From assembly GCA_002633005.1 (NCBI GenBank), contig NMRA01000222.1, forward strand, positions 401,635 through 465,634: a stretch of DNA of 64,000 nucleotides, written 5' to 3'. This document shows, piece by piece, positions 27,617 to 64,000 of this stretch; within the stretch, counting starts at the first letter, position 1, and each line of letters starts with the position of its first letter. Made by a program: the position numbers and the translations under genes. This stretch comes from Phoronis australis. Its lineage: Eukaryota; Animalia; Phoronida. The notes beneath the pieces were generated by a model, which saw only the letters and a list, made by a program, of their open reading frames with translations, was not told the DNA's origin and ran no database searches.

Positions 27617-27895
27617 TCAAGAAATACTAGAAAGGCGCTGTGAACATACATAGGCAACGGAACGTATGGATAGTTCTTTGGTAAGCAGGAATTCGTCAGA
27701 GAAATCACTGTCGACGAAAAGCCGGCCACAGACACGGAGATGTTTCACGGCCTCATACTTGCTATTAACGGCATACCTTTCATTTTTTACTACCGCGAGC
27801 CAATTCCTAAGCATTTCGGGCTCTCGAGGAAGTCGAAAAAACGATAAACCCGCTTTCGGACAAGCGGGAACCGATGCACCGCACTATAGCGGCAT
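27617..27895 (-). pseudogene. Decayed THAP zinc-finger domain (transposase-derived relic)
   Basis: MPL*CGASVPACPKAGLSFFRLPREPEMLRNWLAVV...HLRVCGRLFVDSDF follows the THAP pattern (C..C, FxFP, W, RVCSxHF..DF). It has an in-frame TAG at codon 4 and Leu in place of the zinc-binding His. Confidence 0.65.
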
Positions 27896-31418: not shown

Positions 31419-31502
31419 ATGGATACAGAACGTATGATTAAAACAACCAAGACGTATCACATCTACCGTGGAGTGTCTCCAACTTCCACCAACAGGATGG
31501 AG
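31419..31502 (+). CDS. Prm: Paramyosin exon 1 ([28 protein letters not shown])
   Basis: gccATGg start, donor GTAAGA, IYRGVSP head motif. Confidence 0.9.
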
Positions 31503-34500: not shown

Positions 34501-37500
34501 TGTCAATGATTTTACTCGTCGATGCAATTAGGGAATGGAATCAAATTTCCACAGACTAGTTGAAGCAGAATGGTTTGAGACGTATTTTGTTGGAATGGTC
34601 CAGTCACGGCTTCACATATTTTTGCATTTTAGGCGGAACGTGTAACGGAAGTATTACCATTAATAACTTTGAGAGACCCAATCATTTCATTTGCAAATTC
34701 ACCTTCTTGTTCAAATGAATGAGATATTTTTGTGGCAAAAGATAAATTCGCCTCCTTGTTCAATTGAAAGAGATATTTATGTGGCAAAAGATAAATACTA
34801 TAAGAGAATAACATAAATTATTTCGCGACCACTGATAATACGTTCTCCGACAGTGTTACAAAAACAATCTGTGAATTCTGTTTTAAGGTGATGTTGACCA
34901 GAAAGCCGTGAAACATCCATCGCTTTTCATTGATGCCGTGACCATCAGGTGTCGCTGTACATGTAACTGATCTGACCAATTACAATCTGCTGAAACCATA
35001 AACCCATGGTTGTGTAAACAGAACGAGCAGACGATGACAGTAAACCACGCCCATTGACGAAAAAATCAGATGCAAGAAGCATCTGTGGCCGCATAATAAA
35101 AACAAATATAATAGACCGATTCTTGGAGCATACCAGGTCGACTTGGGTATCAATCCATGTGACCTGACGTCACCCTCGTGACCCGTCCATATTTGTATAC
35201 AGTAAAATAAATGTATGGTTATTTCGGGCGAAAATCAATTTTAACGTAAAAAACGCAAGACAAGTTTTACACGAAAAACAGCGCATACTTGAATGTTACT
35301 AAGTCCTTAATCACAATGGGATAGAATTTAACTATTAAATCATCCAAAAATGATACATTTTAAAACATTTTTTATAACTTGAACTGAATAGCAGTGTAAC
35401 CGACTGTTTCCGGCAAAATAAAGCTATCTTACTTTTGGCTATTGGGAAAGGGAGCGGTATTTTAACTTTTTAACACTACTTGTCGTTGTATTTTGAAAAA
35501 ATAAGTCAGTTGACCAATCCACCTTTTGGCGAGCTTAGCTAATGCTCATTGTCGACAAAACTACCTTCTGGTCCGAACATTCGTATCACTTTATCAGCGT
35601 ACAGGTTTCGATGAAAATACAACCCTGGGACTTCCGATTACACAGTTATGAGTACGACCCTTTTAACAGGGGGATTTAAGATGAGATGTCCAGCTAGATG
35701 GCTCGTGAGAAGCCTCTGGTCCCTGTTTCAATGGGCCTGAAGAGAGACCTGTCCTTGTGCTGTGTACACAAATTTTTATTCACGGAAACTTAATCATAAA
35801 TGCAAACGTTTATTAGTCGCATGGAGCTTTGTTGTCTTACGATGTTGAAGGATAATTTCTATGTCCTCGCCTCCGACTACTGTGTAAGTCAGTCACTGGT
35901 TTAGTTGGGGACCGCCGTGCAGAGAGAAAACAGGAAAAATCATGGAGAACGAACTGGAAACAATGCTTGAGGTAAAATAAGCTTGGCAACTCACGGGAAT
36001 AGGGTGGAGCGTTTCTGGTTGAATTTCAGCAGTTAGAGAGACTAATAAATTCGCGAATATGAAGCTATCCCGAAGGTTAGGCCTATATTCAATGTGGCTG
36101 GTCATTCGTCACGCCCTGAGGAAGGTAATTAGGTTTACATGTTCCTCGTCATGGTGATGAAATATGTAGATGTTTTCGATAAATTTGTCATGGTGGCTAT
36201 TCTTCATTTCGTAAAATACCTGAAAAGGAGGAAACGGCAAACAATTTGCAACTGTCGAGCCAGAAACAGTTTTCAATGCGGCCAGACGAAAAAACACAGA
36301 CCTAATCGGTTCATTTGGCTCCTACACCTGTCTTTATTTACGAGACACAAGGCTGCGTAAAAACTGTGCAAACCAATTAATTTAATAAGTCTCTAACAGT
36401 TCGTCATCTCTCATTTGCCACTTATGGCCATGATGAGTCGATCTGCCCATACTGTGGATTGTGCAAATGATACTTTTCTTCTTCTCCGCCTCGCCAAATA
36501 TAGCGCAGACGATAGGTCGAAGGTCACTACTGTTTTTTGCCTGTAAGGTGTTAACTACGACGACTAGGCAGAAAAGAATTCCGTGTTAATGTCTTTCTCG
36601 ACACAGAAAAACCAGACAGTGGTATGCCAGTCATTGAGTAGTCATCGTATTTAAGGAAATAAAACACACAAATTAAGACGGATCAGGGAATGTGGGCGCC
36701 CTTCAAAATAAGGCCAAAGGCTTACGTGAGGCAGGCTCATACATGTAAGTGTGGCACCAGGTTTGTGAATGGAAGTTATCCAACAAGCTGTTGCAGTGGC
36801 TTTTTAAGCATCACTCATTACTTGTTTTTGCTTTTCGGCTGCAACCGAGTTCACTGTCACTAATATCCAAGACGTGTTTGCAGTATGCAACAGCAATTTA
36901 CTTTAGTATGCAGCATGAACGATGACTGCCATAAACCGCCCTAAGTCCCCAAAATATATATTTTTTTCATCAACATAAATTCACGAAATTGCTTGTCAAA
37001 GTGTTAGTTATTCAAAGTAGGTGTGATTTGTAGACACGTACGCAAATGACAGTTCGCTATTTGTTGAGACCAGTGCCCGGTTGCATGAAACAGTATCAAA
37101 TAGGGACTCAACTAGTAAGTTCCCTAAATCTGCTGCGTATTTTTGGACTTGTGAAAACATCAACTGTCCTTTCTTGAATTGTTTTAGTTTCATTACTAAG
37201 TCAACTTTTGACTTTGATACAAATCGAGAGTGAACTCTATGCTGAATTGTCAATATTGTCGAGAATAACTTGGGATCTTTTCACGCAACACCCTCAATTT
37301 AAGGACTGTGTCCCTATTTATTTTCAATGAGCACTGAGCTCAGTTTTCAGTAATATTATTAGAAAATATCATTAACCAAAGAGGATCTCATAATAAAGGT
37401 AAAATTAAAGAAAAATGTTGCATTTGCGAGTCCATTAAGGCACAAATACGCAAAAAGACTTAGGGGTCTTAAGTTGAATGCCTATTTGGGACTGTTTCAT

Positions 37501-40500
37501 GCAACCGGCCATAGGGCTCTACCAGTTGAGTGGTGAACGTGTGTCATTTTATTCACCGAGCGCGTGGTCTCGAGGAATATCGAACTCTCAGTTCATTACA
37601 AGACCAAAGTCATTTCTCATCTGGGTGAGGAACAGCTTTGAAATCAATTTTATAGTGGTAAGGAGATATAAATCAAAATTCAGTTTCTTCGACGGAACGC
37701 TTAATTGTTTACTACCGGTTTACCAAAACTAATACCGTAATCCAAGGTTAGTCTCTTAGCGCATTGAATAAGCTCTGACTAGGTGAACGCCGTCTATTTA
37801 ACAGCCTAGAACACTTCTGCCGAAAGACATAAATGTGTAGGCCAGCTCAGCTATTCGACAGGTATAGGCGGGTTAGTGGGATGCCAAAAGAACGTCATTT
37901 GTGCACGTGTACGTTTTGGGAAGGCTACTACAATGTGAGCTGAAATTGTGGGGCGAAATGGCGTTAAAAGAGTTTAGCGAAAACAAACAGAAATCTGGTC
38001 GACACTCTATGTCAAAAAACGCTAATAATTTACACAATTTGAAGTAGGCTCGCTTCAAAGAAGAGGAAACGGGGTGTGTGCGTCGCCTTCACTCACGAAG
38101 GTGGGTTCAGTGCTTCCTCTAAAATTGTTGGATACATGTATGTAAGCTTATGTCTCAGGGTGCTTTATATGGTAGTTAGAACACGCTGTGCCTTGAAAAT
38201 AATCACTCCTGGTTTTTAGGTAGAGGTGCGCTCTTGAATATCTGAAAAATCTTTCATATTGCACTGAGAGAAGTCTTCTAAAAGTAGGATTTCCTGGAAA
38301 TGCACGATTTTAATTCAGTGCTATGCGATATTGGTTTTAGATAACCATTTCAGTTAAATTCGCACACGCAACATCGTTTATTGAGCCAGATGCCGAAGTC
38401 CTAGCTATCGTCACATTTTTCCTTTCCAAAATATCTGATTTCCCTAGCAGACCATCGTTTGGCACAGGTTGAAATTAATCCGCTTGATTGATGTTGCGGC
38501 AAATATTTGCCCAGGAGATAGCAATTTACGCTGTACGAATATATGTCAAAGTGAGTTCCATCTCCAATTGGTCATCCCCGGTTCACATCTCCCTGTCACT
38601 AACATTCTGCGCACGCACGACATGTTCATCTGAGCTATCATATTACGGATGAACATTGACGGCATCTTGCTGCATGGAAAAACATAGCTCCGAAATGTCG
38701 GTGAATAAGCGACTGACCACATTCACTTCGGGGCTATTTTGAAGCACAACAAATCTCAGCGTTATTCACAACAGGAATACAAGAAAAGTTACAGACCGAT
38801 AGATTTATGCAAATATTTTAAATACCTTAGGTCAACGAAGTCAACCGTGTTCTCTACTAACTTGGACTGCCCTGTTTGTTATCTAGATTTACTTCACTTT
38901 CAGTCTGAGAATAAAAGGTAAACAGACCGTGTGGTACTTAGATTTTATTACCCATAGAAAATGTAGTGAGTGTAAACAAGGTCCTCTTGTTGGATGCTAA
39001 GCGATCCGCTAGCGTTCGTAGGTACAGACTCCATTTCTACTGACATGGCAAGCGACAAGACCTATGATTTAATTGCCAATTCAATCCTTGCAAAATTGCG
39101 GAACCATGATGTTGAGTTTAAGGGCCTCAGAGCAAAAGCTACCCAGGTAGAGTATTACACAATGTGTGAACTGTAGCTACAATAGAAAGATATTAGGAAG
39201 TAGGCCGACTCTCCGCACCGGCTATTTTTTGTTGCTTAGAGGGGCGTGGTATCACGTTGTCAATTCTCAGATTAAGGTCTATGCTGAGACACTCTGTCGA
39301 GGCATGATTCAAGATTTCTCTTTTTTCAAGTCAAGTCGAGTCATTTTATTTACAGTCGATTAGTGAAACAACGAGAAAACATTACATAGTACCAGTACAC
39401 CGACAAACACGTTTTTGGTTTCAATATGTGTTAACTACGAATGGTCAACGTCTATGACAGAGTAGAAGTCGCTAAAAGCACAAAGGGGGAACAATCCTGT
39501 GTAAAGACGGAACAGCGATAGATAGGGCTGATTTGTTATTTGCTGTTACCTTGTGTGCCTAGCCATTCAGTTAGAATAGAATGTCTCAATGAGTTGTGAA
39601 CACATCCCTAAATGAGGTGTCCACTCGTGCTTGATTGCACCGGACGCGACCCGGCATAGCACTGGACACGATGTGTGTGACCGGTCACGACCTGCATTGG
39701 TGAAGGGAGAAGATGGATAGGTTGGTCAGTCATTGCTATCGGGCCAAACATATCAATTTACCTACTGATGAGGAATTCCTAGTTTAACATAAAATTCCAG
39801 TCTGTGCTAAAAATAACGCGTTGCTGGCTTGGTGATCACATTTCGCCTAAAGACTTGAGCAATCGTCTGTGAATATTGCAGACGAGACCTGATTGGTGGA
39901 AAAGGATATATCCCATATGGTCATCTTGTGAACGACACACTCATGCTTCAGCCGTTTATGAACAAATTACTAATCCATCAAATATCTCGTTCAACGTCAA
40001 ATAGATGTCGATTCATGAAGTTAATTACCGTGAGGTTACCACAACAACAAAGCTCAGTGCAACGCCGACCTGATGTCACTATTTCACAAACTGATATGTC
40101 AACGTACATTGTACTTTTCACTAATGATGTCTTCACTGCCGTAAACCGAGATCGACAGAAAATTTATAGACGGTATTCCCTTTCAGTGTTTTGTTGTTGA
40201 GAATATTGTATCAATATAAACTAATCGTAGCAACAATGACGACAACTGTAACAAAGCAATGATACAGACCACAACAATTACAATAATACATGGGCGGCGC
40301 AACAGTGACCAGGCCCCCTGTAGTGCACCGTCAGTGGACCATGGGCGGCGCTGCACTACGGTGAGCCGCCCATGTAAATGATAGTGTCAATGATGATAGC
40401 TACATTGACAATCAAGTGCGATAGCCATGATTATACTTTTCCCTTATGTTGTCATTACCATTCTAGTTTTCATTACCTTTTGTTCCTGCAACCTATTTTC

Positions 40501-43500
40501 ACATCAAAAGTGGTATCATTTTTATAAAGTCTACCCATAGTTCCAGGTAAGGAGACCACTTCTGTCTAAGGTATTCACGTATTATTGTCGAGTTCTGAGA
40601 GATTTACGTGTTCTATTTCAGGCACGTCTTCGTGAGATGGAAGACATGCTGGATTCAGAGAGAGAGGGCCGTGTGAGGGTAAGTTCATACTACGAACCAG
40701 TGCTGCTTCCTATGTCCAGAAATGTCGGTGCCGGCTCGTTAACTATTAAAATCAACCAAATTGTAGGTAATGATTGGAACTGTTTAATCAACAACCTCTG
40801 AATAACGCGCTTCTGTTGTGCACGCAAATAAACAAGAGACTTGTTTTGTGATCATCTTCAGATGGAAGAATTTTAGCCCTAATCCGGCTACTTGTAGATC
40901 ATATCCGAACGAATACTCTGCGCTGGACCCAACTTTATACGAATCACTGATGTGAGCACATCCTCCCAGTGATGTCATTGGCATTCCCCATCGTGTGACG
41001 CTACTTTCCATAACCATGTGCCATGATAAAAGACGATTTCTATCATGTTTGGTTCAATGTATAGCTTCGTAGGTTCACCTGGGCTGTCTACGTACGGAAC
41101 ATCTCGGACATTTTCGTAGCGGCAAATTTCACTTAGGAGGCGAAGGTTTTCTCCACATGAGCGGACTTCAGTCGCATGGCCAATCATTCCCGTGTTTGAA
41201 AGCCACATGACTTGCCGATTGACTGAAGTCCACACATGGACCGATAACCGTCACCACAGCCGACGGGAAACTCGAGGCTACGAAAATACACGAGGTGCTT
41301 CAAATGAGACGCTTTAGTTTCAGTCTTACCAGAATAAGTCGAATATGTTATGTTTCCGATCTTTCAGGCAGAAAAACAAGTGGCTGAGTTATCCTTCCAG
41401 CTGGATGGGTTGAACGACAGGTTGGACGAGGCTGGCGGTCTGTCTGTGGTTCAGGTAATACACGCAATTGATCGTATTGACGGAGACATTGTCCAAAGAG
41501 AGAAAAGAACCGCAAATGGCCCGTGTGTTTAGCTTGACAAATTGTTAAGTATATGTAGGGCTTTACTTCCAACATTTTAAGGTTTTTGTAACATTGAATA
41601 CCTATTTGGAATAATCTTTTAACTATATTTCTAGTTAAATTTAAAATCGACATCTTGCATGGGTGGTGCATCACTAAAAATGGGGATATAGCCCCCCGCC
41701 CCCTTGTGGTGCACCATCCGTAGACCATGGGCGGCGCAGCCCCGAAAAAAGGCTGGCTATAGCCCTTCCAGCCCCCTACTGTGCACCGCCATGTCTTGTC
41801 TGTTTTCTGGTAAAAAAAAAACGATTTCCCTCACTCCCCTCAACTTACTACAATGTACTTATCAAAGTTCAAAGGTTACAGAGCTGTCAGTCGATCTCAC
41901 GACGGGCACAGAGCAGGGTTCCGTATGTAAGCACAATCCATTCAGAGAGTCGCCATAAAATTGAGTCAACGAAGTGTACATAGCATAGAAGGATGCCACA
42001 GAAAACGAAGATAAAACGTAATTTTGATTCTGAAGGAGTCCGACTCGCCGCGATGATTTTGAGTTTGTGTTCACGAACACAGCAAGTTGTGAAAAATATA
42101 AATCCTCGCCAAAATTCATTAATTTCATCAGTAATTTAATGTTTCGCTGTTCCGATCTCGTGTTCTGTACGGCGCGCTTTAGCCACCAGTTCGATTTCTT
42201 TTATCCATTTCGTATAGTTTGTCCCTTGATATCAGTCTCCCCGGCACTTGGTGCACAATGAACTGCTGGCCTACTCATTGACTCCGCCTTTTGACCTAGT
42301 TTGAGTCAAGGTACACGAAACCCCACGTGCAAGCTCGAACCGATTTAGTGACAATAAGTTAATTTCACACTGCAAATTAAGTTGACATTACGAGTGAATG
42401 TTGAAATAACGAACATTGTTAAGGCGTGTTGACCAAAAGGATGCGTCATGATGCAAAGTATTTTTAGCATCTTTCTTCTTTTAGAGAATATAATACTTTT
42501 ACTGGTTGAGAGAGCCTAGTTTTTCTGGTAATTAACTTTGAATTATCGTTCCTCAATAAGGTCCTACACAACCTTAAATTGTACGAATGTGATGCAGTTC
42601 AGAGCTTTCAAAGGCGAATTCCCATTTTTTGCGTGTTTAAACCGATTTTCTTGAAACTAGATTTTCACAAATTATACTGTCGTACTCGTCTTTCAAAAAT
42701 TACTGGTGTTCGTTGTTTTTTCGACATTTCACAATACCGGAAATTACGTTCTCACGTCCTTCCATCGCCTTCTTGATACGTTTCTTTTTGATGGTAACTG
42801 GTTGCACGATGAACGCAAAGTTGTCATTGTTTCGTATTTATTATGCAATGGCAGTATTAAAACTGAATTCCACAATGTTGTGATTTGAGAACAAAAAGGA
42901 GCGTTACGCAGAGGAAGTAAGCACGACATTTGGCCATCAAACAACTCAGTAACAGAAGAAAGGTTTCTCTGGGCTCTAAGCCCCAAGTATGGGGGTTCTG
43001 CTGAGTTGAGCTGCCCTTCGGTCGACACAGCGTTCGAGTTAACCTCCTCCAAGAAGAGCCTGGTTCGTGCGGGGAACTCAAAATAGCCGAGTTGGCTGAA
43101 TGGATGAATCTGACATTGGAGCGACCGTTTGTATTTTACCTCGACGTTATGGCTTAATTGTACATTTTCACGCATGTGCAGATCAGTACCAAATGTTATC
43201 TACACTCACGTAATTCGTATTGTCGGTTGTAGTAATCAAACCAATAAATTTGATACGTTTCAGATCGAAATGAGCAAGAAGCGCGATGCTGAGTTGTCAA
43301 AGATTCGCAAGGATTTCGAGCTGGCACAAATGCAGTTTGACACTGAAAGTCAAACCATGAGAAAGAGGCACAACGAGACTATAAATGATCTGTCGGAACA
43401 AGTGGATTTCCTCACCAGAAATAAGAACAAGTAAGTTGTCAAAGGAACGCTGGACAGTCAGATCTTTTAGAAATGTTAAAGTAAGCTATCTATTCGTCCT

Positions 43501-46500
43501 ATGTTTCACGAGTATATTTTAATGACGTAGAGTACGTTATTAAACTTTTCGTCCATATTTAGATAAAGAAACAGTATTTTGCTCGTCAAGCCAAAGTGTA
43601 TGACGTCATTGTGGAGAACCAAACAAGGCGCGTTTTAGTAACCAGCCAATTAAGATTTGCAGGATAGCGTACTTGAACAGTCTCCCTGCGTCCAAGTAAA
43701 CCAATCTTGAATATTTCAATTGACGCCTAAAACTGAGTTTTTCTTACAAGTGAACCAGCATTCTTTCGCTCACCCGTGAGCATTACAAAATAAGTATATG
43801 CGTAATTTGCAAGGAAATCGCAGAAAACCCCGAAACGACGAATTTAATTCATTCTTGACCTTTCTTTTTCGTTAGGGTGGAGAAAGAAAAGGCTACGCTT
43901 ATCTTAGAAATTGACGGATTGACTAGCCAGCTCGAATCCTCCAACAAAGCTCGCGTAAGTACCTGTGTGATCCCGTAAGAGTACTCACGTGCACCGTCTA
44001 TGAAAATACCAGATTGTATAATTTCAGCTCAGAATGACAAGAAGCATGTACTTAGTTGTCTTACCTCTGTTCGAGTCATGAAAGCCCTGTTTTGATGACG
44101 TCATTGGCATTTACAGGTTTCCGCTGAGAGCAAGCTCGACGGACTTGATGCTCAAGTGCAGCGCTTCCGCGTCCAAGTGGATGACCTCACCCGCCAGTTG
44201 ACCGACTCCAACAACGCCAAGCAACGCCTCACTCAAGAAAATTTCGATTTGCAGCACCAAGTCCAAGAATTAGATAGTGCTAACGGACAGCTGAATAAGT
44301 TGAAATCATCGCTGCAGAATCAACTGGATGAGGCCAAGCGTACCTTGGACGAAGAATCAAGGGTATAAATCAATACAATAATAAATTCCGCCAATATCTC
44401 ATAATTTATATCAAATCGACAGAACTATTCACTAACGGCTAGCAACTCTTTTTGTCAAATGATCATGCGCGTCACGGCAAAAGATTAATGAACGCCCGTG
44501 ACCATTTTTAAAAGTCGTATTGCTAGACAATATGCATTTTACATCAGACTTGTTCGTGTGAAAACACACAAGTCTGACGATCGCGCGAAGTGGAACTGTA
44601 ACTCTCGTTGTCATGGTTACAGCAACGCCAGGTGCTGTCAGTGCAGGTGACCACGCTGCAGACCGACCTTGACGGCGCCCTTGGCCGACTGGAGGATGAG
44701 TCAGAGGCGAACTCCTCCCTGAGGGCTCAACTCCAGAAAATACAGACCGATTACCAGCAACTCAAGGCAAAGTACGATAGGGACCTTATGGCTAAATCTG
44801 ATGAACTCGAAGAAATGAAGTAAGTATCTTGTATTTCTACGTCCAAGTGGCTCATTCTAATTTAAACGTAAACGTAAAATTTTACACAAATGACCGCAAG
44901 CAAACAGAGTTCCCTAGGGGTTCTTCCTGGAAAGTAGTTGGGAGCTTCCGAAAACTCAGTCGAATTGCCGCCTACATCGTCCCCATTCAGCCTTAAGGTG
45001 GCGCTCAACATTTGTCGATATGTTGTCGCTCTCGAAGATGAGCACAGGTGACGATATATAGCGAATCGTACAGGTGAATTAAGCAGGAGGGGGGGGGGGG
45101 GGGGGGNCGCAAAACTGGAACGAGTTTCGACGGTAAAGACTTTTTTGCAATGAACAGGGAGGGCATGGCTCTGTTGTGTCCCCACGTGGCTACGCTAGCG
45201 GAGATTGGTAGAATCCTAGATTAAGAAGTGGGAAAGTGTTTGACATTCCAGTTTAAGTCAACAGTCTTTTTCAGTACTTCTCGTGCTTGCACATTTTGCT
45301 GTTTCAGTTTGAAAGAATATTCATGATACAGGTGCTGGGAATAAACTAGAAAAATTATTTTTGCGAAAACGTCTTAGGCCTGCCTTGTGATAATTGCGTT
45401 GCATGATTGCCCAACTAGAATGAATTTTCGTATTCATTTGCACTCAACAACCTTGGTTTCATTCACAATATGTAACATTTGTTGTGTGATTTGCCAATTT
45501 ACTCTGTAAGGCGCAAGATGAGTGCCCGCATCCAGGAGCTTACTGACGAGTTGACGGTGGTGACAACCAAAGCTGCCAACGCCGAGAAAGCTAAGAACAA
45601 ACTGACGGTCGAACTGAGAGAGACCACAATCTTGTTAGAGGACGTAAGTACCAAAACGGTGCTTTATCAGGTTGGTTGCCTGGAAGCCGAAGGTGGAAAT
45701 CATGGACTACAAGCAGACTGCGCGGGCTTTTGTGGTTTCAGGCGCTCAACAAATTTGCGAGAGATTCTTGTTAAAAACGAACAAAAGACCTTATGACTCC
45801 TCCACTGCTGCTATAGTGCAATATTAGATGTTACAACGTTTTTCAAAACCAAAACTCCTCACCATCGAAAAACGCTCGTGTTCCAGCATAATAGCCAGGC
45901 TAGTTTTGAGCCCAGGAAGTACGCGCAATCTGATTTCAAACTACGGGCACATCCAAAGATGGATTCCATGAGCCAGCCGAATAATTTTTCATCAGGTGGA
46001 ATTAGATGCAAGGGCAAGCACATCGCAGTCCACATGCGATGGCTGCGATGTGAACCTTTGTAACCAGTTCCTCTGTCCGACATCTGACTGATTATTGTTG
46101 AAGTTACCACGTTTTTGTTCCTCTGTCTTTAGACGCAAGAACATTACAATAATTTCGGAACTGAACGTACAGATTGAGAAGATAACAGTAAGGGTGACCA
46201 AGTCCGAACGACTTGTGACGCAACTAAAAATACAAATAACTGAACTCACGGATGCACGGGAAGGTGTAAGTTACGGAATGCTTCCAGCGTTTGTGAAGAT
46301 CCACCCAGGAATGCTGTGTATCAATTCACCCTTCTTGTGAAGTTTCCGGAATTCTAAACATCCAAACCTCTGTGCAAAGGCATATACGCATCACCCGAAT
46401 TATGAGTGAAACGATTCTTCTTCTCTTGTTTGAATCCCAATGACATCCTTTTAGACAAGTTTATCCCCATCCACAATATTCGTATTAGATGTCGCTCTAT

Positions 46501-49500
46501 TTTCTCCATCCCGTCGACTTTTTCCTGAACTTTCATATTTGTTTGAACCATACTGGTAGATCGGGTTTGTGATGTCTCGTTATTTACGATAAACCCCAAG
46601 CGAAAAGTACATTACTGAGTGTGGGCATGCGTAAATAAAACCATTGTGTTTCTGTTTCACTCGCCACTTGTAATATGTGAAGTTTAGAACTTTTCGAGTA
46701 AGATGTTGTATCAACATAATTTATAATATCTCGATGAAACTCCTTGTTCTTGACGTTAAGATTTCAAATACTTTTATAACAATTGACAACAGCATTCACA
46801 TCACCCGGATGAAGCAACACTCTGGAACTTTCCATCTGTGCCCACACTCTACGATCTTACGTGCTTTCATCTAGGCCCAAGCTCAAGTCGCTGACCTCAG
46901 CCGCAGATTGAAGGATGCCGAAAAAGCGAACGCAGAACTGGCACGTCGCGCAGACGAATTACAGAGTGCTCTTCGTCAGGCTCAAGAAGATAATAAGAAC
47001 CTGAGTGCCGAGAACCAGAGGTTGAGACAACAGAATGGTGAGCTGACGGAGAAAGTGAGCGCCCTCGACAGGGAAAACAGAGGACTAGCAGGTTAGAGCG
47101 TACTCCGTAACCGATGAACGGTTGTAATTGTTCTACAATTGTGTTATTGAAGATGTTAACGTTGCCATCAACGCGTTTTTTTGTTACAGGGTCTTTACCT
47201 AATTTTCATTGGAAAATTTACAGTAAACACTGATTTCAACTGTTCTTCTTGAGGTTAGAAACGATTTCTTGACTTATTAAGAGCCGACAATTCATTGATA
47301 CTTGCGACCAGGCTTATCAAGTTGATTTGACTCGACAGTCACTTCCCCCAAGCCCAGAAACCATTTCTAATCTCACTAAGAAAGAAGTGGATACTAGTTA
47401 TAACGATCAGCGGTCTAACCTTGAAGCTACCTTTTTACGAAAGGCGTTTTTTTAAAGCAGGTTTATGTTTTACACCGTTTTGCGCAGGTAAAACGATAAT
47501 CATTGCACCAAATGGATTTGTTTGGCTCACATGTTCACCCAAATCGCTTTCCATGAACAGAGCAGCTGCGCGAAGCAAAGCAAGCTCTTAAGGATGCTAA
47601 CCGCCAGGTGACCGAGTTGACTACCATCAAGGTACAGCTTGAGCAAGAACGGGACAGCTACGCTAATGCCCTCAGGGACGCCGAAGATAAATTGAAGGAT
47701 CTTGAAGCCAAATTGAACGCGGCCAACGCTGCTCTAGGTTCGCTTCGGGCAGAGATGGAACACCGGCTGAGAGAGAAGGACGACGAACTCGAAGCACTAC
47801 GGTATGTTCGTAGTTGATTAAAAATAATTAAATTTCTTAATTTGACATTTACTCTCAGGGTCCCAAAATTAAAAGTACGATACATCAAAATTAATACATA
47901 TATCCAAAAAGGGCGACTCCGTAGCGTAAAGTTCTTCTTTGAAATTGATACGGTTATTATTTGTCTAACCAGCGGTGATTAATTCCAACAGCAAGAGCAG
48001 TCAGCGTGCTATTGAAGAACTGAACAGGACTATCGTTGAGATCGAGACTCGATACAAGACGGAGTTATCCAGACTCAAGAAAAAGCTTGAGGGAGAAATT
48101 CGTGAGCTCGAAGCAGCTTTGGACAGCGCCAGGAATGCCAACAGCGAACTACAACGGCAGAACAAAACTCTGACTATTCGCATTACTGAGCTCACGGCCG
48201 CCAACGAGGATATGGCAAAACAACTTGATGATGCTCGATCGCAGCTTGCCTTGCTTGAGAGGAGGCGTGTCGCACTGGCAGCTGAGCTCGAAGACGTGCG
48301 TTCACAGCTTGAAAACGTAAGTGTTAAAAAGGCCACTTTGAGGAAGTATCGAATTCCTTATTTTATCCACCACTTAAGGCCTAAATGGCGAGTTACACCA
48401 CGCACAAACTCTTAATTCACAATTCCTACCTGCTCTACATCACAATATACGTGTAGCATACTGCGAACGTTTTTCTTTAGTTCTGCATTCCTTGTAGGCG
48501 GAGCGTGCTCGCAAGAACGCCGAAGCTGAGCTCGGTGAAGCCTCTTCCCGCGTGAGTGAACTCACTATCCACATAACATCCCTAACTAACGAGAAGAGAA
48601 GACTGGAAGGCGACCTCACCGGACTTCAAGCGGAACTGGAGGAAGCTATTAATAACTACCGCGCAGCCCAGGACAGAGCTGATCGCCTGCAGGCCGAAGT
48701 GAACAGGCTGTCTGATGAACTGCGTCAAGAACAGGACAACTACAAGAATGCAGACAGCTTAAGGAAGGCCTTGGAAGTTGAGGTGATTCACAATGCTTTA
48801 CAATAATCTCAGATATACTCACTCTGGCCAAGTATAGGCGAATCTTAAAGAAAGTTCCTAAGATATTTGATAACTCCTCTAGCGAAGACAGTTCATATGT
48901 ACAGTATACACATCGAAATCAGTGGCAAGGACCGCATCGAAAGGTTCAGCAAAATGAATGGAAACCAATATCATTCCAATGACTACCGTAAGTCACCTTC
49001 TTCGGAAACATGTATTAAAATAACGGGTGACCTGTAGGTGTTCATGACGCCAAAATGACTTGTATCTTTCTGTTTCTCTTTACAGATCCGTGAGATTACC
49101 ATTAAACTTGAAGAGGCAGAAGCATGGGCTCAAAAGGAAGGCAAGAGACTGGTTGCCAAGTTGCAAGCCCGGGTAAGTGGTTACCATTTTGAAGTATTGA
49201 AGTAACACGCAAACATACTCTAAAGTAGAAACATGTTAATACATAGGGGGATTAAAAGGCTGTTCCTCCTCAAAGCGAAACCCCCAATAAGGCAGCGACG
49301 TGTCAGCTGACTAGTCGTTCTACCAACTCGTTCACGTGGCGCAGTCTTTACACAAACAAAGGCAATAGCTCAAAATAATCAAGTGTATATATGCCAAATG
49401 ACGAACTCATTTGAACCACTTTAGCTCTATAATCCGTCATTGGACGACTGGCCAACTCGGTTCTATAATTTTATATTTGCGCTAGAATTGAGTCAAAATT

Positions 49501-52034
49501 GAGCTTTTTGATGAGTTCCAACAGAAAGGCAAAATAAATCAAATTTCCATATAAAGAATGGTGCAAGCAGTGTCCGACTATCGAGGCCACTGACAGGCAA
49601 AGAAGTTCGGAAGCCCTATTGCCTATGTTCCCATGGTGTTTTACGAACAACTTATACAGTACATGTCTGCCTTTTAAAACTTTAATTTATAAACAAATTA
49701 CACCTTTAGTAAAGACAATATTTACTTTTGCGCAAGCATTCAACTGGTAGTTCAACCTGCCGGGTGTGATCTCCGACATACTAGAATCCACCGGAAGCAT
49801 TTTACCGATATTTCTCGTGTTTTCCGGCTTCGGAAATGGAATAAGCTCTACTCTATCGGATTGACACTATCTCTATTAACTCCTTTCACCTTTTGTAATG
49901 AAGTATAACGACGCTCACGCTGCTTTATACACAAACATGTCTAAGGGAATCGTCTCAGACACACGTGAGACATATATTTACGTCACGTGACCATGTTAAA
50001 CCGCTAGCTCCGATTGGCCTATAACACTAGATTGACGTCTGGCGACTGGTCAAATGTAGGGTTATCCAAAACATTTCGTCCAAGGTACTCCAGTGAACGG
50101 CCTCGATAATAATCATTTGCAAACGTAAAAGTCGTTTATAAAGCTTCTTGAGTGGCGAATGCATATCTTTCTCACTGTTTTTATTCCAGCTCCGTGATCT
50201 CGAGGCAGAGTTCGAAATGGAACAAAGGCGTCACAGGGAGGTGAACTCTCAGTTATCAAAAATCACTCGCCAATACAAAGAACTCCAGGTGCAAGCCGGC
50301 GACGACCATAGGTTAGCAGCAGAATTGCAGGACCTTGTTGATAAACTCAACATGAAGGTCAAGACATTGAAGAGGCAACTTGAGGATGCTGTACGTATCA
50401 CTGTCTTTCTCATCTCTTTAGAGCTTGTCGAATCCCGCTTCATGTCAGTACCAATATGTTAGAGTGCAATTTTTGATTACTTGGATAATCCTTTGGAAAG
50501 AAAACGCCCTTAGAAAGATATCTATATCGTTCGCGTATTTTTAACTGTCAAAATCTTGCAGTAGTGTTTGTGGAATCAATGATTGAAAATAAAAGACATT
50601 TATTTTTGCTTTTTCTACTTGCACTGTCGGTTGATAACAGTACAAAACAGAAAATCGACAAATTTTCTTCTTTGCTGTATCTGTTCTTATAAATTGGTGT
50701 TTTGTTCCATCATATTGCTATTATAATAACAACTTAGACAGACTGTGTTGTTAAGAGCCAGCACAGACGGAGAGCTACACGCCTCAAATGCAGATGCGCT
50801 CAACTGATAGCTCACGTCTGCCACAAAATGAACCGTGAGGATTTCGCCTCGTGAGGCGGTGATGTCTCACTTATTGGATTGCTCTCGGCGTCACGAGCGT
50901 AAATCCTCACAGCATGTGGGCGAGGTGAGCTAAGTGCTTTGCCAATTGCTTTGGGCAGCCAACGAAAATTACTGCATCATGTAACAAGAAATATCTTTCG
51001 CTCACCCACTGTAACCATTTCGCTGTTTAATACAAACGTAGTTTAACTGTCAATGGGAATTTTAACTCACGTGTTTTCTACAGGTAACAATGACGTGAGG
51101 AAAAGTTTACTTGACGCACACAGTTCAGCTTATAGCTTTCCGTCTGCCTGACCTTAAGAAAAATCCCACTAGTTGCCAATAATAGCATTTGTCACTTACC
51201 AACAGAAATATATTGCATATTACTTTCTGCGTATCCCCATGTTCTTTTTATATACGTGTCGCATGGCTGCTTACGTGAAGTCTACTATGTTATTTAAAGG
51301 CGCCAGTTGAACTGAGATATCTTTTGCAGCATGCCCTGAGCAGAAAAGGAGACGTCTGTTTGCTTAAAGAAGGCTTATCTATTAATGTTTTAGCGAAAGC
51401 TTATTCACTAAAGTCTTTGTTGCAGATATTAATCAACATTTCTCATCACACTCTCTCGCCGTAGATTAGCGCCTTTTGTAGCGAACACAGCATCCATTGT
51501 TGTCGGTCTGTGAGGTGCGGGACTCGGCCCAATTACCGAAGCACGGTAGAATACTCAGAACACTACTGCTTATTACATGGGTCAGCAGCAATGTTGTGCA
51601 ACAGCTTTGTTTTAATGATACATCAGAGTCAACTAAACGCCAAGGACAGTTAGTCCCTAATACAACCTATTGGTCACCTATGCAACACTGCGGCTTTTGC
51701 ACAACTGGGCAGAGTGTGGACATCGTTATAATTTGCTTACTTTGCATGTTCCCTGGCACTGCGGTTCTAGACAGCACCTCTCCCTGTACCGAAAATCGCT
51801 TCACAGACCGCCCGTAAGCCACTCTGTATAGTCCTTCCTATTTTCTCACTCTCTTTACCCCACCTCGGACAGGATGAAGTGACCAGCATCACCTTGAACA
51901 AATACCGTAAGCTCCAAGCTCTGTATGACGACGCCGAAAACCGAGCTGATGTTGCGGAAAAGGGTTTGCAGATGAACCGACGAGCGCGTTCGCAGTCCGT
52001 AACTAGGGAGACTGTGCGAATTATTAGAGCTTAA
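31419..52034 (+). CDS. Prm: Paramyosin (thick-filament coiled-coil core protein); 855 aa with exons 8a and 15a; alternative ends at 52282 and 52989
   Basis: Exons 31419-31502, 40622-40678, 41368-41454, 43264-43430, 43876-43954, 44117-44362, 44623-44819, 45511-45643, 46875-47091, 47561-47801, 47992-48316, 48498-48782, 49086-49172, 50190-50390 and 51873-52034 join in frame (2568 nt), all GT-AG. There is no motor domain. It has the short head IYRGVSP and motifs matching flatworm/mollusc paramyosin ([50 protein letters not shown]). Confidence 0.96.
32741..32962. mobile_element. MITE with AGGCGGATCCAG TIRs in paramyosin intron 1
   Basis: Perfect inverted ends AGGCGGATCCAGC ... GCTGGATCCGCCT. Confidence 0.65.
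40289..40374. mobile_element. Short CATGGGCGGC-TIR MITE (tandem dimer)
   Basis: CATGGGCGGCGC ... ACCATGGGCGGCGC ... GCCGCCCATG. Confidence 0.55.
40622..40678 (+). CDS. Prm: Paramyosin exon 2 ([19 protein letters not shown])
   Basis: tttcag|...|gtaagt, phase 0/0. Confidence 0.92.
41368..41454 (+). CDS. Prm: Paramyosin exon 3
   Basis: [29 protein letters not shown]; ctttcag|...|gtaata. Confidence 0.93.
41658..41793. mobile_element. Short CATGGG(C/T)GG-TIR MITE (tandem dimer)
   Basis: Same family as the copies at 29730 and 40289. Confidence 0.55.
43264..43430 (+). CDS. Prm: Paramyosin exon 4
   Basis: [17 protein letters not shown]...TRNKN; phase 0/2. Confidence 0.93.
43876..43954 (+). CDS. 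Prm: Paramyosin exon 5
   Basis: [26 protein letters not shown]; phase 2/0. Confidence 0.92.
44117..44362 (+). CDS. Prm: Paramyosin exon 6
   Basis: [13 protein letters not shown]...LDEESR; phase 0/0. Confidence 0.93.
44623..44819 (+). CDS. Prm: Paramyosin exon 7
   Basis: QRQVLSVQ...KSDELEEM; phase 0/2. Confidence 0.93.
45511..45643 (+). CDS. Prm: Paramyosin exon 8a (133 nt, mutually exclusive candidate)
   Basis: [44 protein letters not shown]; phase 2/0; donor GTAAGT. Confidence 0.9.
46133..46265 (+). CDS. Prm: Paramyosin exon 8b (133 nt, mutually exclusive alternative to 8a)
   Basis: Strong acceptor tttttgttcctctgtctttag, donor GTAAGT, same length and phase as 8a; [44 protein letters not shown] aligns to 8a without gaps. 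Confidence 0.8.
46875..47091 (+). CDS. Prm: Paramyosin exon 9
   Basis: [17 protein letters not shown]...DRENRGLA; phase 0/1. Confidence 0.93.
47561..47801 (+). CDS. Prm: Paramyosin exon 10
   Basis: [15 protein letters not shown]...[16 protein letters not shown]; phase 1/2. Confidence 0.93.
47992..48316 (+). CDS. Prm: Paramyosin exon 11
   Basis: [14 protein letters not shown]...RSQLEN; phase 2/0. Confidence 0.93.
48498..48782 (+). CDS. Prm: Paramyosin exon 12
   Basis: [23 protein letters not shown]...LRKALEVE; phase 0/0. Confidence 0.93.
49086..49172 (+). CDS. Prm: Paramyosin exon 13
   Basis: [29 protein letters not shown]. Confidence 0.93.
50190..50390 (+). CDS. Prm: Paramyosin exon 14
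   Basis: [14 protein letters not shown]...KRQLEDA; phase 0/0. Confidence 0.93.
51873..52034 (+). CDS. Prm: Paramyosin C-terminal exon 15a (53 aa + stop)
   Basis: [53 protein letters not shown]; donor GTATGT at 52039. Confidence 0.9.
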   Translation, partial: DEVTSITLNKYRKLQALYDDAENRADVAEKGLQMNRRARSQSVTRETVRIIRA

Positions 52035-52099
52035 GAAGGTATGTCTGCATGCTTGCCCAAGCTCGCTGGCTCATGCATGCATATCTTTGTTCCTGACAG

Positions 52100-52282
52100 G
52101 AGGCGAACATTGTTTCTGCCAATGCAAGATGTCGAAAAGTCCAATATGAGCTGGAAGAAGCAATGATGAGAGCGGATATGGCCGACAAAAAACTGGAAAC
52201 CGAGCGCGAGAGGAACCGTGCACGCTCAGTCCCGATAACCAGTAGCTTAAGCGAACAATTTGTTGAAATAGTTAGAATATAA
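52100..52282 (+). CDS. Prm: Paramyosin alternative C-terminal exon 15b (60 aa + stop)
   Basis: Acceptor ctttgttcctgacag; EANIVSANARCRKVQYELEEAMMRADMADKKLETERERNRARSVPITSSLSEQFVEIVRI*; donor GTACGT at 52290. Confidence 0.8.
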   Translation, partial: EANIVSANARCRKVQYELEEAMMRADMADKKLETERERNRARSVPITSSLSEQFVEIVRI

Positions 52283-52827
52283 AGAGCAGGTACGTGGCAT
52301 GATACCTTTGCACCGATGTGGCATGCTTAGAATAGGTCAGGATCGTCGAGTTGCAGGCAGTAAGGAGTGTGTATTGTGAAGCAACAATCAACCTACATGA
52401 AACAGGAAATGGCCGACAGTTGAGAGCGTTCCACGAAAAAAGTCAATCGAATATGGTCACCGAGAAATGGGGCCTATCTTGTTGTCATTACGAAATGAGT
52501 TAGAAGACGTAATGCAAAAAAGGAACCTCTCAGTGACTCAATTTCTTGCGGAGGTACAGTAAGTAGTCAATGGCGTGTTGCGTGGAGTTATGTTACAACG
52601 GCACGTGGCTGTAGAATTCTGTAAGCGATGCCCGCACTGGGCATGTCAAAACTGGCCTTTTACAGGACCAGCTTCAGTGATTCTTTACTTCTTTTCTGCA
52701 CAGCTTTTTGAGTGTAGTGTGGTCACGGTCTGCGTGCTGTCATCATAATTCCACTGCGTTCAGCACACGTAGCGACACTATGTTAATTTCAGTTTGCATG
52801 TTCTAATAGCATGTTTGTTAAATTCAG

Positions 52828-52989
52828 CAAGAAAGCGGAAACGCCAGCATGATGAGGTGCAGACGAATACAGAATATGCTGGAAGATGCCAAGGAGAGAG
52901 CAGCACAGGCCGAAAAGGACGCTGAAGCACAAAGGTCACGCAGGCGCAAAGCGGTGACAACGAAGGAGACAACTGTTCAATACTTATAA
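52828..52989 (+). CDS. Prm: Paramyosin alternative C-terminal exon 15c (53 aa + stop)
   Basis: Acceptor tttgttaaattcag; QESGNASMMRCRRIQNMLEDAKERAAQAEKDAEAQRSRRRKAVTTKETTVQYL*; same coding length as 15a and in the same register. Confidence 0.72.
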   Translation, partial: QESGNASMMRCRRIQNMLEDAKERAAQAEKDAEAQRSRRRKAVTTKETTVQYL

Positions 52990-54139
52990 CCAGGATTTGT
53001 ACGAATTTGTAAGCTATGCAAGTGTAGAATGTCTGGTGATTTTGTAGGACTTTAAGCACGCGTGGAACATATCGGCATCACGAGCATGTAGCCAGTTTTG
53101 TATTCCAGACAATACCTTTGTGTTTACCCTGCACATTTGAAGTCGACAATTTTACTGCATTAGAATATTACTTGGTATTCTACTTTGCGTTGAAGCAATG
53201 CCGGAACAAGATTTCTCATTTCTAAGACATTTGTGGGCCCTAGTAATTTGAACTCCCCCCGATCGCCCCAATTTTGGACTCTCCCGGAGGCAAGGATTTT
53301 TGACCGTGTCGCTTGTCGTCAAAAATCTTTCCCCCAAGGATGTTCCCTAGCTATGGCTCCATTGGGGTCCTTCATTTGTGCAGGATTCAAGCAGTAACTT
53401 AATGGCATAACCCGACATAGTATTACAGTGATAAGAACAGTTAAATTTAATATCTTCCACATGGACAACTTCCATATTTTATTTGTAAGACCTTCAAGAA
53501 ACAGTACACCGATTGTTACGTGTGAATACAACTCAAATTTACGCAGGCACGATTCCATTTCAGGGCCGCCCAACATCAACGACTGACCTTGCGATGTCAG
53601 CGTATTCCCGGACAGAGATAATGTTTCAGCGAATTCCGATGGAGATATAACGTACTATCGGTTGGACTTGATATCGTGCAGACATTCTTCACATATGTAT
53701 AAACACGAGCAAGGCTACGTGCTTACTAACCAGTTTTATTAATTAAAATAATGCTAAGTGTATTTTCTGACCAGTAAACCCTGGATTCCTTGCTTAGTGC
53801 TTTATATAAAGTTTAGCAATATTATTTTTGAAAATAGGCCATCGAATACAAAATACGACAGTACTGCAGATATAAATGGTCAGTGGAAACGTGTCGTTGG
53901 ATCAGACACCAGTGAGCATTCTTGCAAGTGAACATCATCTCAGCGTGTCTAATACTGGAACAAGATGGCTGCCGGAAATGACGAAGTGCGCTCGGAAATC
54001 TAGACTGTAGAATCGTCAGTAGTTCGGAGTATTTTCGTCGTAGTTACTTGGACATGGTGAAGACAGTGTTTGTTTTTGGTCAGTTTATATTTCGATAAAT
54101 TTAATCATTGTATTTATTCGCTGCTACGGTGATCGATGC

Positions 54140-54145
54140 AATAAA
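54140..54145 (+). terminator. Candidate polyadenylation signal for paramyosin
   Basis: AATAAA followed by T/GT-rich sequence, downstream of the terminal exons. Confidence 0.4.
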
Positions 54146-55322
54146 ATGCTACTTGTTCAGTTTTCAAAAATCGTCTTTCAAAATTATCACATAATACCAG
54201 AAGCACAGCGAGATCATTTCTCAGTATGCAGTAAAGGTTGGTTACCGCAATGAGTAGCGGACAATTGGCGACTGGCGAGACCTGTTTATGGGAGCCAGTG
54301 TCTTACGCTGTCGTCGATGGTTGCTCGCATAGAACTGTAGTCGTGGTCGCAAGAGCTACATGCACGCCAAATTCACACGTTGTAGTATAAGTCGCAGTCG
54401 CAGTTTTTAGTGGGCTCCTGCGGTCGTTTATAATGACACAAATCAATTGTAACTTGTTGCAACAATGTGTCCACGGAATGTAAAAACAACATAAGCGATT
54501 TGGTACACAAGTACTTACAGGCAACATTTGACTCATGATTGGTAGTAGCAATGACGCAACGAAAGCTGGCTCTCCCAACAATGAAACAAACTGGTTCCCT
54601 CGTCACAATAATGGTTTCCCTTTAATTTCATGTAGATGTCTCCTGGGTAAGGACAACATTTTATAGCCTCACTGACCGCGTATATTACGCTGGTATTCGT
54701 TGGTAGTATATGCGCAGCATTGATACAACGCCCAAACTTACGTGGCTTTCCAAAAAAGGCAACACGAGAACTTGGACTGCTCGCTAAAGGCTGGAACGAG
54801 GTTATATGCGGACCGGACATTAAACAGCTCCAAACTTAAAGATGTTCATGGTGACCGTATCGGTCTCTTTCTTAGCCATAAAATAACAAACAAATGGGCA
54901 GCTCGTGATTTCTTGTTGGTGATTGCTAGTCAACAAAACAAAATTGACAGCTACGATCGCAACCAAACAGGAACCAGTAATGTTACAATGTTACGACTAC
55001 ATCTCCAACAACCTGCGATTACCGCTGCGACCTTATGGGACTAGTCTTAAAGCAACAAACATTGCGTAAATAGTACCGGCACCAATGTGCACAGTGACAA
55101 TAAAACAACCTTGTGAGACACACTGACCACAAAACACATTTTGTCAAAAATAAGCTGAACAGTCCAGATATGAGCTTCAACACGGAATAAAACACTAGCA
55201 TGTATGAATTGTTGATACACACTAGATTATTTAACATAACCAATTAAAAAAACTAAACTTTCAAGAAAAAATATTCGTAAAATGAAACCATTGATGGAAA
55301 CACTTCCTATCAGTCATAAAAT

Positions 55323-55502
55323 TTACAAAGACGTTTTAAATTCTAAACGGACATTATCATCATCAATAGTGTCTTCAGTGTTGGCCTCGGGTATGTCGTA
55401 GGTGGCGCTGCCACTTCCGTTCGAGAAGTTACCCATGCTACTTCCTTTAGTGCTGGTGTGCCTGAGAGGTGTCTCCGAAACGGTCTTTTTGATGTCGGGG
55501 TC
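55323..55502 (-). CDS. SLC5 terminal exon (DPDIKK...EFKTSL*)
   Basis: Acceptor tgttgcag, phase 0, stop TAA. Confidence 0.8.
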   Translation of the reverse strand, partial: DPDIKKTVSETPLRHTSTKGSSMGNFSNGSGSATYDIPEANTEDTIDDDNVRLEFKTSL

Positions 55503-63560: not shown

Positions 63561-64000
63561 CTAAAGAAAATAAATATTAAGTGTGTTAAACAATGTGTGG
63601 ATCATAAAAAGTTAATAAGAAAACAATTCCCGTTTTTAAGACAATACGCCTTTCTCTAATTGCAATGTTGGCCTGAAAGGCTAAGGCTGCGGCGGACCCG
63701 CAGCCTGTCCTTAAAAGGGATACGACACAGCCATCGATACCCAACGATTTCCCCCAGGTCACAATTGTTTTTTCCACAATGGCCGGCAGCCGACACTGAT
63801 TTTTAGGTCTCGTCATCGATTCTTACGGTTCGATCAGAAGCAATATTCATTTAAACTGAACTTAGCGTACCCCGACTACAGGTAGGCGAACTCTCAAGTA
63901 ATTTTTAGGTCACGTGGTCACTAAGATACGTGATTTATAGTGCATTTCCAGATCCCGAGATAATTTTCCTCAGTGTGTCGCTATACGTAAACGGTCTTCT

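What the first reader, a model, noticed from the sequence alone, without database searches (positions are those of the whole stretch)
51873..53010. Three tandem, homologous, alternative C-terminal exons of paramyosin (15a/15b/15c)
Seen in sequence: after exon 14 (phase 0), three separate phase-0 acceptors each open an ORF that aligns without gaps to the paramyosin tail: 15a [30 protein letters not shown], 15b EANIVSANARCRKVQYELEEAMMRADMADK and 15c QESGNASMMRCRRIQNMLEDAKERAAQAEK. Each then ends in its own short non-helical tailpiece and stop. None appears in the ORF track. Donors lie 4 nt (15a), 7 nt (15b) and possibly 19 nt (15c, GTAAGC at 53009) after the stops, so the stops are close enough to the junctions to escape NMD. 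Inference: exon triplication gives isoform-specific tails. 15a and 15b keep an R-x-R-S phospho-type motif (RARSQSV, RARSV), while 15c has RRRKAV at that position. 15b and 15c carry Cys where 15a has Tyr. This could tune thick-filament assembly or phosphorylation in different muscle types.
Basis: partly seen in the sequence, partly recalled or inferred. Interest (0 to 1): 0.8.

Follow-up and report, generated by a model that had tools for sequence, protein, structure and literature searches.

The report
Three swappable paramyosin tail exons
The paramyosin (muscle filament core protein) gene of this mollusc- and worm-related invertebrate carries three old, diverged copies of its last coding exon, two of which RNA reads show in use one at a time while the third is only likely used, so the gene makes at least two and probably three protein tails that would differ in filament packing or phosphorylation, a design that a bivalve-like genome repeats with six copies.

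Summary
After the 201-nt exon 50190-50390 of an intact paramyosin gene, three phase-0 acceptors open homologous tail frames. They rank 1-3 of 1440 AG-led open frames (77, 49, 41; next 8).

Stranded RNA reads from three runs show 15a as the major form and 15b as a minor form (about 2-8%). Each is spliced from 50390 and on to one shared non-coding last exon (53564 to about 54170), so these are stop-bearing penultimate exons used one at a time.

15c is unproven: no junction reached 3 reads in any run (0 of 3), and depth was about 2-3 in two runs.

The design is not unique. Dreissena isoforms X1/X2 switch at the same boundary, and a bivalve-like contig (L032) holds at least six tandem copies, each with a donor-like GT 2-31 nt after its stop. 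Four other loci have one copy.

Distinctive here: 15b/15c are far more diverged (9-11 of 30 residues), the conserved serine motif is altered or lost, and GCATG sites cluster around the exons. A second duplicated exon (8a/8b) exists. Tissue specificity and function are untested. No paper on such a paramyosin cluster was found, and the scan had no earlier paramyosin case.

The parts
31419..50390 (+). Paramyosin gene, 14 coding exons from the ATG to exon 14 (802 codons, no motor domain, no stop)
   Evidence: Spliced model; 57% identity over 851 aa to Dreissena paramyosin; tree. Of these introns only 49172-50190 was checked by reads, plus a loose end matching the preceding exon
50190..50390 (+). 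Exon 14, last constitutive coding exon (201 nt, phase 0); common upstream donor
   Evidence: Junction reads; Myosin_tail_1 E 5e-7, below the curated cut-off; same 67-codon exon in L032 and L071
51873..52038 (+). Exon 15a, major tail (53 aa, isoform 855 aa), stop 52032-52034
   Evidence: 50390->51873: 168/289/125 reads; 52038->53564: 132/206/122 reads; also in contigs of X1 and X2
52039..52099 (+). 61-nt spacer between the 15a donor and the 15b acceptor, with two TGCATG
   Evidence: the shortest constitutive intron of the gene is 162 nt; no 15a->15b joint listed
52100..52289 (+). Exon 15b, minor tail (60 aa, isoform 862 aa), stop 52280-52282
   Evidence: 50390->52100: 4/none listed/6 reads; 52289->53564: 5/4/6 reads; loose ends 4/none listed/5 and 5/5/10
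52828..53008 (+). Exon 15c, predicted third tail (53 aa, isoform 855 aa), stop 52987-52989; donor 53009 or 52999 not settled
   Evidence: Homology; depth about 2-3.5 in X4 (0 in the bin before the acceptor), 0.6-3 in X3, 0-0.6 in X5; no junction listed
53564..54170 (+). Shared non-coding last exon (3' UTR), AATAAA at 54140
   Evidence: Joints from 15a and 15b; molecule ends at 54131-54152; poly(A) behind 54170 in an X1 contig
52046..53088 (+). Eight intronic GCATG sites (three TGCATG) flanking the three exons; predicted Rbfox-type splicing elements
   Evidence: 8 in 784 nt against a mean of 1.3 in 1000 dinucleotide shuffles, 0 of 1000 reaching 8; densest region of the window
45511..45643 (+). 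Exon 8a (133 nt, phase 2 to 0), the copy most like other paramyosins
46133..46265 (+). Exon 8b, second duplicated exon of the same gene (133 nt, same phases); predicted mutually exclusive with 8a
   Evidence: Rank 2 of 673 frames (37.2; next -3.1), 0 of 5000 shuffles; either copy gives an open 802-codon core, both together stop at codon 365; expression untested

Best explanation
This is a cluster of three duplicated, stop-bearing penultimate exons of a paramyosin gene: exon 14 is spliced to 15a (most messages) or 15b (a few percent), and likely rarely to 15c, then to one shared non-coding last exon, which would give paramyosins whose ends likely pack or are phosphorylated differently. Each cassette carries its own acceptor, the last four to five heptads of the rod, a tailpiece, a stop and a donor a few bases later, so it can be copied as a self-contained unit (shown from sequence and, for 15a/15b, reads). 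One-at-a-time use is observed for 15a and 15b. It is probably enforced by the 61-nt spacer between them and by decay of messages with two cassettes, whose first stop would lie far upstream of the last junction (inferred). Choice is probably set by an Rbfox-type factor binding the clustered GCATG sites, in a minority cell type or stage (inferred). 15a keeps both serines of the conserved RSxSV motif, 15b keeps the first in place, and 15c has neither, so the minor forms would be less or differently phosphorylatable (inferred).
For: Homology far above chance. Junction reads at both ends of 15a in 3 of 3 raw runs. For 15b, the downstream junction in 3 of 3 and the upstream junction in 2 of 3. No 15a->15b, 15a->15c or 15b->15c joint listed. 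The loose ends behind 15a (152/228/120 reads) have the shared exon as consensus with agreement 1. Between copies, third codon positions match at 8-13 of 30 and first/second positions at 15-17 of 30, while frames stay open and core positions L18, A21, A25, A28 are kept in all three; this points to long selection on the protein. The same boundary switches in Dreissena X1/X2 and opens six copies in L032, each with a donor-like GT 2-31 nt after the stop. GCATG enrichment: 7 sites in 461 nt of intron flank after the alternative exons against 2 in about 2900 nt of the other 15 intron flanks. 11 of 29 C. elegans mutually exclusive clusters carry UGCAUG (passage of PMC4165533). Alternative tailpieces change rod packing in smooth-muscle myosin (abstract of PMC2173570).
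Against: 15c has no listed junction in any of 3 runs, no contig in X1 or X2, and X5 has next to no depth on it (0-0.6) while showing about 2 in the flanking introns. X3 shows intronic depth of 3-4 at 52412-52564, as high as on 15c. 15b is only about 2-8% and absent from the X1 and X2 contigs. No counterpart of 15b or 15c was found in another species (0 of 10 candidates). GCATG was one of six motifs tried and L032 does not show the same density. A 61-nt intron is longer than the roughly 40-nt steric limit given for C. elegans. No tissue, protein or phosphorylation data.
Confidence: 0.72

Rival explanations
1. Only 15a and 15b are live; 15c is a silent or decaying copy whose few reads come from unspliced precursor.
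For: No 15c junction at the 3-read threshold in any of 3 runs; intronic depth of the same size in X3 and X5; weak TTT/GTAAGC donor context; both conserved serines lost.
Against: 15c scores higher against the family profile than the expressed 15b (48.9 vs 41.0), has an open 53-codon frame of the same length as 15a, an in-phase acceptor and flanking GCATG sites. In X4 depth rises from 0 to 2-3.5 at the acceptor bin and falls after the predicted donor. Under a fifth of each run was read.
Confidence: 0.2
2. 15b and 15c are neutral leftovers of exon duplication; the 15b reads are leaky splicing with no distinct function.
For: 15b is 2-8% of messages; both copies sit on long branches (0.9-1.6 changes per column); no counterpart found elsewhere.
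Against: Third positions are near saturation yet frames, core residues, phase-0 acceptors and post-stop donors survive. Both 15b junctions are exact. By comparison a non-homologous cryptic acceptor at 51465 appears at depth 7 against 11101 in X1. A bivalve-like genome keeps six intact copies.
Confidence: 0.08

Closest known systems
Dreissena polymorpha paramyosin-like isoforms X1 (868 aa, XP_052279072.1) and X2 (860 aa, XP_052279073.1), automatic annotation
   Same: Identical up to the tail and then two homologous tails with different tailpieces; the difference begins a few residues after the position of the 50390 boundary.
   Different: Two annotated forms, 26 of 30 identical in the rod part (here 9-11 of 30); both keep RSMSV. 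Its genomic layout was not seen.
Unnamed bivalve-like genomic contigs L032/L033
   Same: Same 67-codon preceding exon, phase-0 tandem tail copies, own stops, donor-like GT 2-31 nt after each stop, spacers of 48-66 nt between four of five neighbouring pairs.
   Different: At least six copies (the contig ends), 17-24 of 30 identical to each other, five with RSMSV and one with RSVSI; they group with mollusc tails, not with 15a-c (SH-aLRT 92, not starred); no RNA evidence held.
Mutually exclusive exon clusters and differentially included C-terminal exons of lophotrochozoan muscle myosin heavy chain genes (PMC3912159; passages and part 1 of section 8)
   Same: Tandem duplicated exons tune a thick-filament protein from one gene; Capitella and Lottia Mhc have three alternative C-terminal exons.
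   Different: That paper covers myosin only (0 mentions of paramyosin in the main text); its C-terminal exons are described as differentially included, not as homologous stop-bearing copies of the rod end.
Vertebrate smooth-muscle myosin SM1/SM2 tailpieces (abstract of PMC2173570)
   Same: Alternative splicing changes the C-terminus of a myosin-type rod, with measured effects on packing and filament stability; the working model here.
   Different: SM1/SM2 differ in 43 versus 9 unique tail residues; here the end of the coiled coil itself is also swapped, by duplicated exons.
Drosophila miniparamyosin (recalled; the name also appears in a table of PMC9820631)
   Same: Paramyosin isoform made from one gene for particular muscles.
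   Different: Changes the N-terminal part (recalled), not the tail.

Membership tests
Paramyosin | Headless myosin-like rod of about 850-900 aa with short non-helical ends | tested here: met
   802-codon open core plus tail gives 855-862 aa from an ATG at 31419, no motor domain in the model
Paramyosin | Groups with named paramyosins | tested here: met
   57% over 851 aa to Dreissena paramyosin; within the mollusc/flatworm/unnamed clade apart from arthropod-type rows (FastTree only, no myosin rows in that tree)
Mutually exclusive homologous exon cluster | Tandem homologous exons with the same entry phase | tested here: met
Mutually exclusive homologous exon cluster | At least two members are spliced between the same flanking exons | tested here: met
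   15a and 15b both join 50390 and 53564
Mutually exclusive homologous exon cluster | Members are not included together, nor all skipped | tested here: met
   No joint among 15a, 15b and 15c and no 50390->53564 joint listed, at thresholds of 3 reads and 1-2%; rare events below that are not excluded
Mutually exclusive homologous exon cluster | Third member (15c) is spliced | tested here: inconclusive
   No junction at 3 reads in any of 3 runs; depth 2-3.5 in two runs
Alternative last (terminal) exons with own poly(A) sites | Each exon ends the transcript | tested here: not met
   15a and 15b splice on to a shared last exon
Dscam-type docker/selector cluster | One docker pairing with a selector before each exon | tested here: inconclusive
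   No one element pairing with all three exons among the 25 longest of 56 inverted repeats shown; no relatives for covariation
Rbfox-regulated muscle exon cluster | (U)GCAUG enriched in flanking introns | tested here: met
   8 vs 1.3 expected, 0 of 1000 shuffles; one of six motifs tried
Rbfox-regulated muscle exon cluster | Exon choice depends on Rbfox and on tissue | not testable with these tools
   Needs knockdown or minigene tests and tissue-labelled RNA

The most novel reading that the evidence does not exclude
The last coding exon of lophotrochozoan paramyosin is an ancestral stop-plus-donor cassette that has been multiplied independently in at least two lineages (three strongly diverged copies here, six or more in a bivalve-like genome). 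It forms an undescribed, Rbfox-switched tail code that sets thick-filament packing and phosphorylation by muscle type. In this animal the phosphorylation-poor, cysteine-bearing 15b/15c tails, perhaps paired with exon 8b, would build a distinct minority filament.
Probability: 0.3. Interest if true: 0.62.

Novelty: new member of a known kind. Interest (0 to 1): 0.42.

Why it matters
Paramyosin is the core of invertebrate thick filaments, and a recent review calls its role probably only structural (passage of PMC12040844). How one gene serves muscles with very different filaments is open. A tail-exon cluster gives a concrete, testable source of diversity at the rod end, which titles in reference lists tie to assembly (Cohen and Parry 1998) and, in Mytilus, to a putative phosphorylation site (Watabe 2000; its position in the RSMSV motif is recalled, not read). 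Short stop-bearing exons like these are easily missed by annotation, so isoform counts for paramyosin, also an allergen and vaccine antigen, may be too low. The mechanism class, duplicated exons used one at a time in a muscle gene, is well known.

Tried and rejected
No whole genome is held, so paralogs and relatives could not be searched. No indexed holder was on record as RNA; the raw runs were added by species label.

Search with 15b alone: 0 of 10 candidates (weak). Pfam: no myosin family hit for 15a, 15b or 15c singly. PDB: 15b matched a myosin tail only at E 0.19 and 15c nothing relevant.

Age of the copies is unresolved. Holding 15a-c as one clade was not rejected (p-AU 0.67; 0.24). 15b with bivalve copy 6 was not rejected (0.26), and 15a with lophotrochozoan tails excluding 15b/15c was not rejected either (0.21). 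15b and 15c score as well against myosin and arthropod tails as against lophotrochozoan ones; I do not read this as ancient origin, because they are long branches and 8b is closer to lophotrochozoan sequences. The IQ-TREE whole-protein tree did not finish; FastTree was used.

No docker/selector pairing was evident. No transcript among L001-L031 matched the six genomic tail loci closely enough to check their donors. The 51465 acceptor is not homologous to the tail and was set aside as noise. X2 (organism B) covers only 15a, identical over 148 nt, and says nothing on conservation of 15b/15c. No structure or complex was predicted. The look-ups of earlier findings gave no paramyosin case.
Full report
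Observation. A spliced model from the ATG at 31419 through 14 exons to 50390 is open for 802 codons; adding each tail gives 855, 862 and 855 aa. It is 57% identical over 851 aa to Dreissena paramyosin and has no motor domain. In a FastTree of 33 proteins it sits among mollusc, flatworm and unnamed paramyosins on its own branch, apart from arthropod-type rows. The animal is therefore probably a lophotrochozoan outside the sampled groups; I did not identify it.

Chance. Against a profile of 40 distinct tails from other species, 15a, 15c and 15b score 76.8, 48.9 and 41.0. The other 1437 AG-led open 30-codon frames of both strands average -24.9 and reach at most 8.4, and 0 of 10000 shuffles of each peptide reached its score. 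The copies are old: 9-11 of 30 residues and 41-47 of 90 bases agree. Third codon positions agree at 8-13 of 30 against 15-17 for first and second positions. L18, A21, A25 and A28 are kept in all three; their assignment to the heptad core is my inference from the myosin register. Exon 14 aligns to residues 1820-1885 of myosin-7, so the cassettes replace the last heptads of the rod plus the tailpiece. That this overlaps the myosin assembly region is recalled.

Expression. Three stranded raw RNA runs of one study (X3-X5, about 18-19% of each read) and two contig sets were laid. Exon 14 joins 15a in 168, 289 and 125 reads and 15b in 4, none listed and 6. 15a joins 53564 in 132, 206 and 122 reads, and 15b joins it in 5, 4 and 6. 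Loose ends on a narrower stretch give 4, none listed and 5 before 15b, and 5, 5 and 10 behind it against 152, 228 and 120 behind 15a, so 15b is about 2-8%. The shared last exon is non-coding, has AATAAA at 54140 and a poly(A) end near 54170. No joint between alternative exons and no skip of all three was listed. For 15c no joint or loose end reached 3 reads in any of the 3 runs. X4 has depth 0 just before the acceptor, 2-3.5 on the exon and 1 or less after. X3 has 0.6-3 on it but 3-4 in part of the intron. X5 has 0-0.6 on it and about 2 in the flanks. Neither contig set holds 15b or 15c. 15c is therefore likely but not shown.

Relatives. Dreissena isoforms X1 and X2 are identical until just after this boundary and then carry two homologous tails. 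A scan of metagenome contigs kept 80 loci, 31 contiguous and 49 with introns; 6 of the 49 reach the tail. L032 and L033, near-identical and counted as one, are 78-92% identical to Dreissena in their constitutive exons. L032 holds at least six tandem tail copies, each opened by CAG in phase 0, closed by a stop and followed by a donor-like GT 2-31 nt later. The other four (L037, L056, L060, L071; an unnamed clade that I take from recall to be annelids) have one copy, with 1252-4698 nt held downstream, and 3 of 4 have GTACGT 5 nt after the stop. This suggests that the stop-then-intron layout is ancestral and makes the exon easy to duplicate (inference; those donors were not verified by RNA). The six L032 copies are 17-24 of 30 identical to each other and group with mollusc tails (SH-aLRT 92, not starred). 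Whether 15a-c arose independently is unresolved, since no tested topology was rejected. No counterpart of 15b or 15c was found.

Mechanism. Shown: choice of one cassette between exon 14 and a shared last exon for 15a and 15b. Inferred: exclusivity from the 61-nt 15a-15b spacer (shortest constitutive intron 162 nt; L032 spacers mostly 48-66 nt by my reading) and from decay of double-inclusion messages. Against a purely steric block, C. elegans sets that limit near 40 nt. Inferred: Rbfox-type control. GCATG occurs 8 times in 784 intronic nt, against 1.3 in shuffles (0 of 1000 reach 8), and this is the densest stretch of the window; it was one of six motifs tried, and L032 does not show the same density. 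Inferred: function. 15a keeps both serines of the family's RSxSV motif, 15b has the second displaced by a 4-residue insertion, and 15c has neither. Net charges are +3, 0 and +4, and 15b/15c have Cys at position 11. By analogy with SM1/SM2 myosin tailpieces this would alter packing or phosphorylation. 15c still has other Ser/Thr in its tailpiece, so it need not be unphosphorylated.

Literature. Ten searches of the open library were run; none listed a paper whose title or abstract start describes a paramyosin tail-exon cluster. What I saw: PMC3912159, passages and part 1 of section 8 (myosin only); PMC8945602, passages and part 1 of the references (scallop; it suggests alternative splicing for an N-terminal difference and has 0 occurrences of 'exon'); PMC12040844, PMC5963113, PMC4165533, PMC5606036 and PMC9820631, passages; PMC2674065, passages (tarantula paramyosin variants at both ends, 71-76% identical, origin not given in the passage); PMC2173570, abstract. 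Watabe 2000, Cohen and Parry 1998 and Li 2021 (oyster paramyosin) were seen as reference titles only and could describe such isoforms. No supplements were opened. Most subscription papers are not held, so absence from print is not established.

Verdict. Real, partly proven by RNA, and of a known kind: a duplicated exon cluster in a muscle gene, already hinted at for paramyosin by automatic annotation of a bivalve. It is worth a specialist's look because it recurs with six or more copies elsewhere, seems undescribed, has unusually diverged minor tails, and comes with a second duplicated exon (8a/8b) in the same gene. Interest 0.42.

Noticed in passing
window 45511-45643 and 46133-46265: Second duplicated exon pair (8a/8b) in the same gene: both 133 nt, same phases, 11 of 44 residues identical; including both would shift the frame. 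8b ranks 2 of 673 frames against the family profile.
   Followed up: partly
L032:4564-6194 (also L033): At least six tandem paramyosin tail exons in a bivalve-like contig; copies 1, 2, 3 and 5 carry Cys at residue 15, and a GTGGCT motif recurs four times in the spacers.
   Followed up: partly
window 53420-55504, minus strand: The 3' UTR of a convergent minus-strand gene overlaps the paramyosin 3' UTR in stranded reads. Exons near 63100-63600 look like a sodium/solute symporter (SLC5) by recalled motifs; Pfam gave no hit on the two frames tried, and their link to the 55504 exon was not shown.
   Followed up: partly
window 51465-51825: Minor GT-AG joint 50390->51465 in one X1 contig (depth 7 vs 11101 for 15a); the frame is not homologous to the tail; probably a cryptic acceptor.
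   Followed up: partly
window 27617-27883, minus strand: THAP domain frame (E 3.4e-6, above the Pfam cut-off) upstream of the paramyosin gene; possibly a transposon remnant or THAP gene.
   Followed up: no
window 50808-50932: Nested inverted repeats (28-nt and 18-nt arms) in the intron before 15a; could be a hairpin or a small mobile element.
   Followed up: no
window 31503-40621: First intron of 9.1 kb, far longer than the others; not examined for alternative first exons or a miniparamyosin-like start.
   Followed up: no
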